Origin: Escherichia coli
Lineage (GTDB): Bacteria; Pseudomonadota; Gammaproteobacteria; Enterobacterales; Enterobacteriaceae
Assembly: GCF_030013595.1 (NCBI RefSeq)
Contig: NZ_CP122768.1
Direction: 5' to 3' (one strand)
DNA length: 64,000 bases
The position numbers were made by a program. This document shows, in pieces, positions 45,301-49,448 of this stretch (its first letter is position 1; every line of letters starts with the position of its first letter).

Positions 45301-48300
45301 TCTGCCTGTGGATCAGGAAAGCGCACAGATTCTTTCTACCCCAATGCAGCAGCCCCAGCCGCGCAGATACAGCAACAAACGAACTGACAGCAGTAAGATG
45401 GAGCGTTTCTTTTGAACAACCAGACAACACCTTTTACCCCTGAACAATTACGTAAACAGGCACAGGAAATGTTGCGACAGGCGGAACAACTGGAAAAAAC
45501 AGGTGTAACAAAAGATGCCATTCGTCGGGATATGGTGCCAGCGCTCAGGGAACTGATGCAGGCGAAACACCGCGCACAAAAAGCGGTGGATGAGCTGGTG
45601 GATTGTGTGGCAGAGCTGGAAACCAGAGTTGGAAAGTTTGAAAAACTGGTGCAGGAGGTGCTGCGCTGATGCGTGATATTCAGATGGTTCTTGAGCGTTG
45701 GGGGGCATGGGTGGCAAATAATCATGAGGATGTCACCTGGTCATCGATTGCAGCCGGATTCAAGGGACTTATTCCTTCAAAGGTTAAATCGCGACCGCAA
45801 TGTAGTGATGATGACGCAATGGTTATTTGTGGGTGTATGGCTCGTTTGAAAAAGAACAACAGTGATTTGCATGATTTGCTGGTAGATTATTATGTGGCTG
45901 GTATGACGTTTATGGCACTGGCCCGTAAGCATCATTGTTCTGATGGATATATAGGAAAAAAACTTCAGAAGGCTGAAGGAATAGTCGACGGAATGTTGAT
46001 GGCACTGGATGTTCGTCTCGAGATGGATCTTGAAGTTGTTAGATGTTATTGATTAACGTTTGCTGGTAAAATTGAATAAAAAAGGGGACGCAAAAACGCC
46101 CCCAAGAGTTTAGAGTAATAAATAACAGAAGGTTAAAAAGAAAAGACAAAATGTCTTTCTTAATGCAGTGACGTGAGGGCGTCACCCACATGTTGTGGGA
46201 GATAAATATCTCCCACAACATATCTTTTTTAATAAAAAGATTTAGAACTGGTAAACCATACCGACAGCAACAATATCGTCGGTGTTTATACCAAGACCTC
46301 TGGTGAAATCATTTTTGTCAAGCAGGTTGATTTTGTAATCAACGAAAGTAGACATATTTTTGTTGAAGTAATAGGTTGCGCCTACATCAACATATTTAAC
46401 TAAGTCTTGATCGTCCCATACTCCGAGATCTTTACCTTTAGATTGCAGGTAAGCCACGGACGGACGCAGCCCAAAATCGAACTGATATTGTGCAACAGCC
46501 TCAACGTTCTGAGCTTTATTAGCGACGAAGCGATCAGCAAATACCGTCATATTCTGGGTTTCAGAATAGGTAGTGGCCAAGTAAATGTTGTTAGCGTCAT
46601 ATTTCAGACCAGCGGCCCAAACTTCTGCATTTTTACCGGAAGCAAATACTCCAGGAAGAACTTTCCCTAGATTAACTTGAGTGTCGGTACGGTCAGATTT
46701 CGCATAAGTTGCACCAATACCGAATCCTTCGTATTCATAGGTAGCAGAGAAACCGAAGCCATCACCGTTACCTTCGGTATAGTTATCGAGCTTGCTACGA
46801 TCGTTTTTGCCTTGGTACTGAGCAGCAAAGTTCAGACCATCAACCAGACCGAAGAAGTCGTTATTACGGTAAGTTGCAACACCAGTTGCACGCTGAGTCA
46901 TGAATACGTCGGTTTGAGTCCAGGTATCACCACCGAATTCTGGCAAAACGTCAGTCCACGCACCGATGTCGTATGCTACACCGTAGTTACGGCCATAATC
47001 GATGGAGCCGTAGTCACCGAATTTCAGGCCAGCGAATGCAAGGCGAGTTTTATCCCCGGAAGAACCTTGAGATTCAGCACGGTTGCCTTTGAATTCATAT
47101 TCCCACTGACCGAAACCAGTCAGTTGATCATTGATTTGGGTTTCGCCTTTGAAGCCCAGACGAGCATAAGTTTTGTCACCATCGTGTTTATCGTTAGAGG
47201 AGAAGTAGTGCTTGGCATTAACTTTTCCGTACAGATCCAGTTTGTTGCTGTCTTTGTTATAAATCTCTGCTGCTTGAGCAGACATCGCCATTAATACTGA
47301 CGCAGCTACAGCAGAGATTGCCACTGTTAATTTTTTCATCGTGAATCCTTAGTCCTTTTCGGAACTATTATTAAAAAATATTGTCACTGCGGCCTAAATA
47401 TACATCTAATCGGTATGGCTATTTCAAGATATGGAGTTTATTTAATGGTTCAAAGTGTGATCAAGATCTCGTTTATGCGTACTGGTAATTATTGACGATG
47501 TTTTTGTAATGAGAGATGCGCTTCTGAAATGTAATGAAAAGTTATTGTTTTTGTATTTTATAATGTAAATTCGTGCTGGTTTACGTACGTAAAAATTTAA
47601 ATATGATGTTAAGAGTGGTCACTTTGCCACACAGCTTAAACCAGCCGCCAAACGGGGTTTTTTATGCCCGAAAAGCGGCGCAGTACGTTAAACGCGCTGG
47701 TGGTTGCGAATACCGGTCTTTCAGCTTGCTGGCTTTTTCGACAAGAGTTATTGGTATGTCACGTTAACCGGAATAAGGGAAAAAGACATGCTAAAACAGC
47801 AGGATATGACCGAAACCGCCAGAGTGGTGTTTAATGAATTAAGCGTCACCGAGCCGGCGACCGTCGGGGAAATTGCGCAGAATACGTACCTTTCACGCGA
47901 ACGTTGCCAGTTAATACTGACCCAGCTTGTTATGGCAGGTCTGGCTGATTATCAGTTCGGTTGTTACAGACGCCTTCCGCAGTGAAGGCTTTTTAATTTG
48001 TGGTAATGGGCGGCTGGTGGGTGTTAGCGGCACCTGCCAGCCATCTGCTCATGCGTTGGGGTCACAAGCAAACCTCAGGCCCATCTGCTTTGCGCAAAAG
48101 CGGTATGAGCCTATCAGAGAAGTGCTTATTGATCTATGACTAATACTGTAAAAATATCCAGTTGTGAGTTAATCAACGCTGATTGCCTGGAATTTATCCA
48201 GACCTTACCGGAAAATTCTGTCGATCTGATAGTCACAGACCCGCCATACTTTAAAGTGAAGCCCGAGGGCTGGGATAACCAGTGGAAGGGCGACGATGAT

Positions 48301-49448
48301 TACCTGAAATGGCTGGACCGATGTCTGGCGCAGTTCTGGCGGGTACTGAAGCCTGCCGGAAGTCTCTACCTGTTCTGTGGTCATCGCCTGGCATCTGATA
48401 TCGAAATCATGATGCGTGAACGCTTTAATGTGCTGAACCACATTATCTGGGCGAAGCCGTCCGGGCGCTGGAACGGATGCAACAAGGAAAGCCTGCGGGC
48501 GTATTTCCCGGCAACAGAACGCATTCTGTTTGCAGAACATTATCAGGGGCCATACCTGCCCAAAAATGACGGCTATGCGGCAAAGGGGCGTGAACTAAAA
48601 CAGCACGTCATGGCCCCGCTGATTTCTTACTTTCGTGATGCGCGTGAATCACTGGGGATAACGGCAAAACAGATAGCGGAAGCCACCGGAAAGAAAAACA
48701 TGGCTTCGCACTGGTTTGGTACCAGTCAGTGGCAGTTGCCGAACGAAGGCGATTATCTGAAATTACAGGCGTTGTTTGCGCGTGTTGCAGCAGAAAAACA
48801 TCAGCGCGGTGAACTGGAAAAGCCACACCACCAGCTGGTCAGCACATACAGTGAACTGAACCGGCAATATGCCAGCCTGCTGGATGAGTACAAATCTCTG
48901 CGGCGTTATTTTTCCGTATCGGCTGCCGTTCCGTATACGGATGTCTGGACGCACAAGCCTGTGCAGTATTACCCCGGCAAACATCCCTGTGAGAAACCGG
49001 CGGATATGTTGCGTCAGATAATTACCGCCAGCAGCCATCCGGGAGATTTGGTTGCTGATTTTTTTATGGGGTCGGGATCAACAATAAAAGCAGCATTATC
49101 GCTGGGACGGCATGCAATAGGTGTGGAGCTGGAAGAAGAGAGATTTAACCAGACTGTAAGCGAAATAAAAGAAAATAGTTAAATATGTGTGTGATTATTT
49201 GTAATCAATCACGAGTGATAGAAATTTATACATATATTTACTAATATTGACACTATGTTTATTGAAATAGTGTTTGCCCTCATTAATATCGATAGTCGGT
49301 TCCGAGGAGATGACAGGGAAATAATGCATATATCGGTCGTTTTATTTTTTCCGAGGAACCGTTGCCGATTTAACTTAGCAGACAAAGCAACTGACTTGTA
49401 ATCACCGGGTCGCCAGTTCGATTCCGGTAATCGGCACTATATGCGGGT

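What the first reader, a model, noticed from the sequence alone, without database searches (positions are those of the whole stretch)
47788..49182. Orphan DNA methyltransferase preceded by a small putative DNA-binding protein, with no restriction partner
The 348-aa enzyme has motif IV (DPPY) before motif I (FxGxG), a beta-class amino-methyltransferase. No endonuclease gene is adjacent. The 65-aa upstream ORF has an HTH-like stretch and could be a controller-type regulator. The enzyme may protect phage DNA or act epigenetically in the lysogen.
Basis: partly seen in the sequence, partly recalled or inferred. Interest (0 to 1): 0.45.

Follow-up and report, generated by a model that had tools for sequence, protein, structure and literature searches.

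The report
Prophage promiscuous adenine methylase with conserved leader
The gene is a close relative of M.EcoGII, the known prophage enzyme that methylates every adenine to shield phage DNA from restriction, so it is ordinary, but it sits behind a small DNA-binding-type protein and a very conserved folded RNA leader that probably keep this toxic enzyme in check and seem undescribed.

Summary
A 65-aa ORF (47788-47985) and a 348-aa beta-class amino-methyltransferase (48136-49182) are real genes, and no restriction gene is nearby. The window is a phiP27-like lambdoid prophage of porcine E. coli.

The enzyme is not an anonymous orphan. It is about 86% identical to M.EcoGII, the characterised non-specific adenine methyltransferase of E. 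coli prophages, and 89% and 73% identical to two engineered relatives that are also non-site-specific. It lies after the Q antiterminator gene and before the lysis genes. M.EcoGI/GII and their homologues are silent in lysogens. Blanket protection of progeny phage DNA is therefore much more likely than epigenetics in the lysogen.

The small protein is a confident winged-helix fold under strong purifying selection. It lay upstream of the methylase in 84/84 close relatives. It is neither an R-M controller (C) protein nor a Com zinc finger, and some species have the methylase without it.

It shows base-pair covariation for a fold that buries the bases just before the methylase start codon, and it matches no Rfam family. 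It is probably a translational brake on a toxic enzyme, which is an inference.

The parts
45669..46052 (+). Q antiterminator gene (127 aa, Q21 family). Q-modified polymerase is expected to read the late operon that contains the cassette.
   Evidence: Pfam PF06530 Phage_antitermQ E=5.8e-54. PDB Q21 6p18/6jnx E=1.9e-9. RefSeq annotation.
47570..47668 (+). Probable late-promoter region, followed by a terminator-like hairpin and T-run (about 47645-47663) that is degenerate in this window. Inferred, not mapped.
   Evidence: In phages 1720a-02 and PhiR5_1 the homologous block starts about 40 nt after the Q stop codon. A promoter-like hit lies at 47580-47607. The equivalent hairpin is annotated as a terminator in SfV and Ayreon.
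47788..47985 (+). Small 65-aa winged-helix protein gene. RefSeq names it 'hypothetical protein'; relatives are named 'TrmB family transcriptional regulator'.
   Evidence: dN/dS 0.03-0.07. AF2 pLDDT 93.4, with helices at 9-16, 26-33 and 37-49 and a wing at 53-62. Foldseek gives MarR/OhrR wHTH with TM about 0.8. Nearly all conserved residues (6 of 7 invariant, 3 of 6 nearly invariant) lie in or just after helix 3, in the motif RCQLILTQLvMAGL.
47972..47999 (+). Hairpin (47972-47977 pairs with 47984-47989) with the small ORF's TGA stop codon in its loop, followed by a T-run. It is terminator-like and forms the 5' end of the conserved leader.
   Evidence: Terminator scan. Compensatory changes CTTC/GAAG, TGCC/GGCG and CTCC/GGAG. 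The hairpin is kept even in loci that lack the small ORF.
47998..48135 (+). Conserved structured non-coding leader of the methylase mRNA. Helices: 48006-48010/48048-48052; 48012-48016/48038-48042; 48059-48063/48131-48135 and 48066-48068/48125-48127, which pair bases -1 to -11 before the AUG; 48078-48080/48109-48111; hairpin 48087-48091/48097-48101.
   Evidence: Leader is 80-85% identical where 4-fold sites of the methylase gene are only 33-50% identical, and its length stays at 131-136 nt. One-nucleotide indels and a 41-nt deletion exclude coding. 97.4% of cells are paired, and 10 of 23 pairs have double changes, reached by 0/500 shuffles. Single-sequence fold z=-3.8. No Rfam match.
48013..48020 (+). 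Chi octamer GCTGGTGG inside the 5' arm of leader helix 2. A second one lies at 47696-47703 in the conserved block upstream of the small ORF.
   Evidence: Some Morganellaceae-clade (Morganella-methylase-related) viral contigs replace it with GACTGTAA and make matching changes in the 3' arm, so the helix is what is conserved, not Chi.
48136..49182 (+). M.EcoGII-family beta-class N6-adenine DNA methyltransferase (348 aa). DPPY 48238-48249; target-recognition domain about 48613-48846; charged linker 48781-48912; FxGxG 49060-49080.
   Evidence: Domain limits are taken from PMC11551740.
49364..49517 (+). tRNA-like sequence (49364-49436) and tRNA-Gly(UCC) (49443-49517) downstream in the same late transcription unit. 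Relatives carry stx genes at this position.
   Evidence: phiP27 and 1720a-02 layouts.
50203..51306 (+). Lysis genes (two holins and an M15 endolysin) that mark the downstream continuation of the late operon.

Best explanation
The 348-aa protein is an M.EcoGII-type methyltransferase that puts N6-methyl groups on adenines in essentially any sequence context. It is carried by a phiP27-like lambdoid prophage between the Q antiterminator gene and the lysis genes. It is therefore expected to be transcribed only after induction, when Q-modified RNA polymerase reads through terminators. Heavy methylation of replicating phage DNA would then protect progeny genomes from many restriction systems in the next host. 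Because blanket adenine methylation harms the cell, expression is held down in the lysogen.

A second layer of control is provided by a roughly 165-nt structured mRNA leader. It starts with a hairpin holding the stop codon of the upstream gene and ends by base-pairing the 11 nucleotides before the methylase AUG, which lacks a normally spaced Shine-Dalgarno. The leader therefore limits or gates translation. The upstream 65-aa winged-helix protein is the usual, but not obligatory, companion of this unit. It is the best candidate for a factor acting on the leader RNA or its DNA, or for coupling its own translation to refolding of the leader.

Shown here: gene identities, family membership by sequence, gene context, linkage, conservation and covariation of the leader. 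Inferred: non-specific activity, late timing, anti-restriction role, translational control, and any role of the small protein.
For: Family: PF01555 at E=4.9e-45. 297/347 identical to M.EcoGII, 306/345 to Anc291 and 253/347 to SUPREM, with 67/78 identical in the recognition domain. All three are experimentally non-site-specific (PMC5778455; PMC11551740). 298/346 identical to the phage 1720a-02 enzyme that Murray et al. cite as very similar.

Context: Q, then the cassette, then tRNA, holins and endolysin, in this window and in phiP27, 1720a-02, SfV, Ayreon, phiNP and Morganella and Providencia phages with different Q types. Silence in lysogens and toxicity when expressed are reported for M.EcoGI/GII and homologues. 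No restriction gene is present.

Leader: conserved far above the neutral rate and non-coding. Its core motif lay about 129 nt upstream of the methylase ATG in all 28 genome loci where a downstream methylase was detected. Covariation includes GGCUGGUGGGUG/CACC..CCAGCC changing to GACUGUAAAAGUG/CACUCUUACAGUC, and AAG:CUU changing to GGA:UCC in the helix that reaches the AUG. Frequent G-U to G-C or A-U alternations fit an RNA on the + strand.

Small protein: 84/84 linkage at a fixed gap of about 154 nt, purifying selection, wHTH fold, and conservation concentrated in the recognition helix.
Against: Nothing here measures activity, specificity or timing. The M.EcoGII sequence used was machine-read from a supplement and contains evident reading errors, so 86% is approximate and probably an underestimate. 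The late promoter is not mapped, and in this window a porin gene on the opposite strand lies between Q and the cassette. The T-run after the stop-codon hairpin is lost in several relatives. Many covarying cells derive from a few clade-level events, so independent substitutions are fewer than the counts suggest. About nine loci keep the leader and methylase without the small ORF. Two phages keep the small ORF without the methylase. The small protein is therefore not required for the leader to persist. A DNA-level role for the conserved blocks (operator, Chi) is not excluded.
Confidence: 0.75

Rival explanations
1. It is a sequence-specific orphan methyltransferase that is active in the lysogen and acts epigenetically on host or prophage gene expression.
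For: Orphan methyltransferases such as Dam and CcrM do this (established knowledge). The enzyme has a helix-turn-helix type recognition domain (PMC11551740), and site-specific relatives such as M.PflMI exist in the wider cluster.
Against: The enzyme is 86-89% identical to enzymes shown to be non-site-specific and keeps the charged linker that M.PflMI lacks. It sits in the late region downstream of terminators. M.EcoGI/GII and their O111 homologues give no methylation signal in lysogens.
Confidence: 0.07
2. It is the methylase half of a restriction-modification system whose nuclease lies nearby, with the small protein as its controller (C) protein.
For: An HNH gene lies 3 kb downstream. phiP27 carries a GIY-YIG nuclease-family gene just upstream of the cassette. 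PADLOC files the methylase under 'Type II methyltransferase'.
Against: The HNH gene abuts the small terminase subunit next to cos, as in phiP27 and SfV, which is the packaging position. The GIY-YIG gene is absent here and in most relatives, while the cassette is constant. A nuclease paired with a methylase that has no sequence specificity has no recognisable logic. The small protein is not an Xre-type C protein.
Confidence: 0.02
3. The conserved intergenic block acts at the DNA level, as an operator for the winged-helix protein, as Chi-dependent RecBCD protection, or as a recombination hotspot, and not as an RNA structure. Alternatively it is a separate small RNA gene.
For: It contains a Chi octamer. 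A second Chi lies in the conserved block upstream of the small ORF, and Chi is enriched in the window: 18 found against 1.7 expected. It contains perfect palindromes such as GCTTTAGCGCTAAAGC. Mosaic breakpoints fall inside it, right at Chi in PhiR5_1. Winged-helix proteins usually bind DNA.
Against: Variants that lose Chi keep the helix through matching changes in the opposite arm. Many pairs alternate between G-U and Watson-Crick, which only makes sense on the + strand RNA. Palindrome centres change sequence but stay self-complementary. The distance to the AUG is fixed and the last helix reaches position -1.
Confidence: 0.15

Closest known systems
M.EcoGII (and M.EcoGI), non-specific adenine DNA methyltransferases of E. 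coli O104:H4 C227-11 prophages (Murray et al. 2018, PMC5778455)
   Same: Same length class (348 versus 349 aa). About 86% identity over the whole protein, including the recognition domain and charged linker. Beta-class motif order, prophage location, no partner nuclease.
   Different: About 50 substitutions. Activity of this allele is untested. The published work does not describe the upstream winged-helix gene or the conserved leader.
Methylase genes of phiP27 (L24), phage 1720a-02, SfV (orf48), mEp460, cdtI and Stx2 phages
   Same: Same two-gene cassette with the same leader, placed between Q and the stx or lysis genes. The phiP27 region is 92.7% identical in DNA.
   Different: Here the downstream cargo is a tRNA-Gly and an unknown 132-aa ORF instead of stx. 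A porin gene rather than a GIY-YIG gene lies between Q and the cassette.
Phage Mu com-mom operon, and com plus non-specific methylases (Hin1523, Nma1821, Hia5) in Mu-like prophages (PMC3299994; PMC6483171)
   Same: A small protein gene lies immediately upstream of a toxic, late, broad-spectrum adenine-modifying anti-restriction enzyme. The enzyme's mRNA start region is held in an inhibitory structure. Promiscuous adenine methylases occupy the mom slot.
   Different: No homology. Com is a Cys4 zinc finger that binds RNA, whereas this protein is a winged helix with one invariant Cys. The methylases are unrelated in sequence to Hia5-type enzymes according to Murray et al.. Activation by the small protein is untested here, and the leader survives without it in some genomes.
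Controller (C) proteins of type II R-M systems
   Same: A small HTH protein encoded just upstream of a modification-related gene.
   Different: C proteins are Xre-type HTH proteins that act at C-boxes to time nuclease expression. Here the fold is a winged helix, there is no nuclease, and no Xre-type Pfam hit was found.

Membership tests
Beta-class N6/N4 amino-methyltransferase (Pfam PF01555) | Domain match above the curated threshold | tested here: met
   E=4.9e-45, 154.6 bits against cut-off 26.7, residues 29-340. PDB relatives include RsrI, MboIIA, CcrM and other beta-class enzymes.
Beta-class N6/N4 amino-methyltransferase (Pfam PF01555) | Catalytic motif IV (DPPY) N-terminal to SAM motif I (FxGxG), with the recognition domain between them | tested here: met
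   DPPY at aa 35-38 and FFMGSGS at aa 309-315. The two halves match solved structures as separate stretches, 8-114 and 281-335.
M.EcoGII family of non-specific adenine methyltransferases | Close full-length sequence similarity to M.EcoGII, including the recognition domain (aa 160-237) and charged linker | tested here: met
   297/347 overall and 67/78 in the recognition domain. 306/345 to Anc291 and 253/347 to SUPREM. The reference sequences are machine-read and contain a few errors.
M.EcoGII family of non-specific adenine methyltransferases | Encoded in an enterobacterial prophage without a cognate nuclease | tested here: met
   More than 590 related viral contigs.
M.EcoGII family of non-specific adenine methyltransferases | Methylates adenine in any sequence context | not testable with these tools
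   Needs expression followed by SMRT, nanopore or LC-MS. Inferred from bracketing by three tested enzymes.
M.EcoGII family of non-specific adenine methyltransferases | Silent in the lysogen | not testable with these tools
   Reported for M.EcoGI/GII and O111 homologues. Here only the position downstream of the Q gene and terminator-like hairpins supports it.
Complete type II restriction-modification system | A restriction endonuclease gene adjacent to the methylase | tested here: not met
   No nuclease domain lies within 3 kb on either strand. The HNH gene at 52168-52518 is the terminase-associated one.
R-M controller (C) protein | Xre-type HTH protein linked to a nuclease gene | tested here: not met
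   Only sub-threshold winged-helix Pfam hits, the best being TrmB at 18 bits against cut-off 25.6. AF2 and Foldseek give a MarR-like wHTH. No nuclease gene is present.
TrmB/MarR-type winged-helix regulators | Family HMM above threshold, plus the winged-helix fold | tested here: inconclusive
   The fold is met (TM about 0.8 to OhrR and SarZ). The HMM thresholds are not met. The protein lacks the dimerisation helices of MarR, being 65 aa against about 140 aa.
Mu com-mom type control | Com: a Cys4 zinc-finger RNA-binding translational activator | tested here: not met
   One invariant Cys (C40), and a winged-helix fold.
Mu com-mom type control | An inhibitory stem-loop that sequesters the translation start region of the modification gene | tested here: inconclusive
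   A covariation-supported helix pairs bases -1 to -11 with 48059-48068. Its effect on translation is not measured.

The most novel reading that the evidence does not exclude
The roughly 165-nt element between the two genes is a previously undescribed class of cis-regulatory RNA, found in lambdoid prophages of Enterobacteriaceae and Morganellaceae. It gates translation of a toxic, promiscuous adenine methyltransferase. The 65-aa winged-helix protein, whose stop codon sits in the first hairpin loop, would be its trans-acting or translationally coupled partner. That would make it a lambdoid analogue of Mu com-mom built from unrelated parts. The invariant unpaired nucleotides leave open that the RNA instead binds a ligand or a host factor.
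Probability: 0.4. Interest if true: 0.6.

Novelty: new member of a known kind. Interest (0 to 1): 0.42.

Why it matters
M.EcoGII is a widely used tool enzyme and the textbook example of a methylase with no sequence specificity. How phages keep such a harmful enzyme silent until lysis was left open by its discoverers. This locus shows that the gene travels as a fixed unit with a structured leader that occludes its start site, and usually with a small winged-helix protein. That makes the control question directly testable. It also corrects the expected phenotype: look for global m6A in virion DNA after induction, not for a new motif in the lysogen.

Tried and rejected
(1) Exact peptide search of the literature for the protein found nothing.

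(2) The supplement of the M.EcoGII paper is not held. I used the sequence from the SUPREM supplement, which has reading errors. Searching with it did not return a labelled M.EcoGII entry, only 90%-level cluster representatives. I therefore could not compare against GenBank EGT69837.1 itself.

(3) The 47-aa ORF 48000-48143, which overlaps the methylase start, was rejected as coding. Reasons: 1-nt indels, a 41-nt deletion in L015, and a stop overlap that is not conserved.

(4) Rfam searches of the leader at E up to 10 gave only a chance 17.5-bit hit upstream.

(5) The first covariation attempts on close relatives were weak because the core helices are invariant. Morganellaceae-clade loci were needed.

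(6) An alternative pairing, TGGGC with GCCCA, proposed by RNAalifold on one alignment, was dropped because L226 breaks it while keeping AUGGGC:GCYCRU by compensation.

(7) Precise mapping of the late promoter failed. Only a weak consensus hit at 47580-47607 was found.

(8) A literature search for the cassette or its regulation returned nothing relevant.
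Full report
**Observation**

A porcine ETEC chromosome (NZ_CP122823.1) is 100% identical over the region and annotates the same two genes, as 'hypothetical protein' and 'DNA-methyltransferase'.

The large protein matches Pfam N6_N4_Mtase at E=4.9e-45. DPPY lies at residues 35-38 and FxGxG at 309-315, which is the beta-class order. Its two conserved halves align with solved beta-class enzymes as two separate stretches.

The small ORF is a real gene. Against homologues in SfV and Klebsiella phages, synonymous sites are near saturation while dN/dS is 0.03-0.07.

**Context**

The window is a phiP27-like lambdoid prophage. The gene order is replicative helicase, a Q antiterminator of the Q21 family (45669-46052), and an OmpC-like porin on the opposite strand (46242-47339). 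Next come the small ORF, the methylase, a tRNA-like sequence and tRNA-Gly. Two holins, an M15 endolysin, an HNH gene and a P27-type terminase follow.

The same order, Q then small ORF then methylase then stx or lysis genes, is found in many phages with different Q proteins. Examples are phiP27, 1720a-02, SfV, Ayreon, phiNP and Morganella and Providencia phages. The cassette is therefore a late-region module.

In 1720a-02 and PhiR5_1 the conserved block upstream of the small ORF begins about 40 nt after the Q stop codon. The late promoter is thus probably at about 47570-47640 in the window, and the porin gene is an insertion between Q and that promoter. This is inference. Only a weak promoter-like hit supports it.

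**What the methylase is**

Murray et al. (PMC5778455) described M.EcoGII, a 349-aa beta-class enzyme from a prophage of E. coli O104:H4. It methylates adenine in any sequence context, is silent in the lysogen and is harmful when expressed. They named the phage 1720a-02 enzyme as a very similar relative.

The window protein is 298/346 identical to the 1720a-02 enzyme. It is 297/347 identical to the M.EcoGII sequence printed in the SUPREM supplement. That text is machine-read and has evident errors when compared with genuine family members, so the true identity is probably a little higher.

The protein is also 306/345 identical to Anc291 and 253/347 to SUPREM. These are two reconstructed relatives that were shown to be non-site-specific. 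The recognition domain (67/78 identical) and the charged linker, which the site-specific relative M.PflMI lacks, are both kept.

Membership of the M.EcoGII family is thus met by every sequence criterion. Non-specific activity is a strong inference, not a result.

The family is abundant: more than 590 viral contigs and about 2,500 protein clusters.

**No restriction partner**

No nuclease domain lies next to the cassette. The HNH gene at 52168-52518 sits directly before the small terminase subunit, as in phiP27 and SfV where cos is annotated beside it. phiP27 has a GIY-YIG family gene where this window has the porin, but that gene is not a constant companion of the cassette.

**The small protein**

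Pfam gives only sub-threshold winged-helix hits. AlphaFold2 with 27 homologues gives a confident three-helix winged helix, pLDDT 93.4. The best solved matches are the winged-helix cores of OhrR, SarZ and other MarR proteins, and the N-terminal domains of some O-methyltransferases.

Nearly all conserved residues lie in or just after helix 3, the usual recognition helix, in the motif RCQLILTQLvMAGL. The rest of the protein diverges to about 45% identity.

The small ORF was upstream of the methylase at a fixed gap of about 154 nt in 84/84 loci with enough flanking DNA. The link is not absolute, however. About nine loci keep the methylase without it, and so does phage Eeyore. Two phages keep it next to a truncated leader with no methylase.

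It is not an R-M controller protein, because the fold is wrong and there is no nuclease. It is not a Com-type zinc finger, because it has only one invariant cysteine.

**The leader**

The gap between the two genes is the most conserved part of the locus. Compared with relatives from other genera, the leader stays 80-85% identical where four-fold degenerate sites of the adjacent methylase gene have fallen to 33-50%. It is still 73-74% identical in Morganellaceae, where the enzyme is only 62-64% identical. Its length stays within 131-136 nt.

It is not coding. Single-base indels and a 41-nt deletion are tolerated.

A scan of one genome per species found its core motif in Enterobacteriaceae and Morganellaceae. 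The motif lay about 129 nt before the methylase start codon in all 28 loci where the gene was detected. Three further loci lacked it: L122 runs off its contig, and L157 and L159 are recombined remnants. The other matches in that scan, in unrelated phyla, look like chance.

The window sequence folds much better than shuffles, z=-3.8.

Close relatives showed covariation mainly in the first hairpin, which holds the small ORF's stop codon in its loop, and in the hairpin just before the AUG. Adding Morganellaceae-clade loci gave clear compensatory changes in the core. For example, GGCUGGUGGGUG/CACC..CCAGCC becomes GACUGUAAAAGUG/CACUCUUACAGUC.

On 67 distinct sequences, 97.4% of cells pair. Ten of 23 pairs show double changes, a count that 0 of 500 shuffles reached. 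The slid controls pair only 26-51% of cells. Many of these changes separate two clades, so the number of independent events is smaller than the cell counts suggest.

The consensus fold has two nested helices at 48006-48052. It also has a long-range helix that pairs 48059-48068 with 48125-48135, the 11 bases before the AUG. The methylase has no Shine-Dalgarno at normal spacing. Frequent G-U to Watson-Crick alternations point to an RNA on the + strand. No Rfam family matches.

**How it most likely works**

After induction, Q-modified polymerase reads from the late promoter through the terminator-like hairpins into the small ORF, the leader and the methylase. The enzyme then methylates adenines throughout replicating phage DNA, so that progeny resist many restriction systems in new hosts.

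In the lysogen no Q is made, and transcripts stop before the cassette.

The leader adds a translational brake by burying the start region. The small protein, or ribosomes finishing its translation inside the first hairpin, may relieve or tune that brake.

The first part rests on family membership, gene context and published behaviour of M.EcoGII. The leader's regulatory role and any role of the small protein are inferences.

**Comparison with what is known**

By sequence the enzyme is a new allele of a known family.

The architecture resembles Mu com-mom. It also resembles the Mu-like prophages in which com is followed by non-specific adenine methylases (PMC3299994 and PMC6483171). The parts are unrelated, so this is a functional analogy and not membership.

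**Verdict**

The finding as written describes an ordinary, already characterised kind of phage gene, and its suggested test would probably miss the phenotype. The added value is the conserved structured leader and its usual winged-helix companion. I could not find either described in Rfam or in the searched literature, and they deserve a modest follow-up.

Noticed in passing
window 46242-47339 (- strand): An OmpC/NmpC-like porin gene (365 aa, Pfam Porin_1 E=1.7e-154) lies between the Q gene and the conserved late-region block. phiP27 carries a GIY-YIG nuclease-family gene at the same spot. This looks like a hotspot for cargo insertion between Q and the late promoter.
   Followed up: partly
window 49364-49436: A tRNA-like sequence just upstream of tRNA-Gly(UCC) scores 45.9 bits with the Rfam tRNA model but is not called by ARAGORN. 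Related genomes annotate tRNA-Thr, Arg or Ile here, so this may be a decaying tRNA gene.
   Followed up: no
whole window; + strand sites at 44944, 45594, 47696, 48013, 49670, 50233: Chi (GCTGGTGG) occurs 18 times in 64 kb against 1.7 expected from shuffles. A run of six + strand copies lies in the 8 kb before the terminase and cos region, the orientation expected to stop RecBCD entering from that end. Two of them lie in the conserved non-coding blocks flanking the small ORF.
   Followed up: partly
L090 (phage PhiR5_1) about 3020-3040; L089 (phiSTEC1575-Stx2k) about 3000-3075; L157, L159: Mosaic breakpoints fall inside the leader. PhiR5_1 diverges immediately after the Chi octamer. The Stx2k phage keeps 73 nt of leader and then carries an unrelated 237-aa HTH protein gene instead of the methylase.
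   Followed up: partly
L015 (IMG/VR contig), leader region: A 41-nt deletion between two ATCTGC direct repeats removes the middle of the leader in one viral contig while the methylase gene stays intact. This is a natural leader mutant.
   Followed up: no
window 46084-46103 (-) and 46190-46221 (+): Two strong terminator-like hairpins lie between the Q stop codon and the 3' end of the porin gene. The second has a 14-bp stem, ATGTTGTGGGAGATAAATATCTCCCACAACAT, followed by a T-run. A weak Rfam IsrM hit overlaps it (20 bits, below threshold). They may end the porin transcript or mark a short Q-proximal transcript.
   Followed up: no
window 49635-50033: A 132-aa ORF between the tRNA and the holins, annotated hypothetical in RefSeq, has no Pfam or PADLOC match. 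It occupies the slot where related phages carry stx genes.
   Followed up: no
window 48131-48134 and relatives: A GATC (Dam site) immediately before the methylase ATG is kept in almost all 67 leaders examined. It forms part of the long-range helix, and a Dam-related role was not examined.
   Followed up: no
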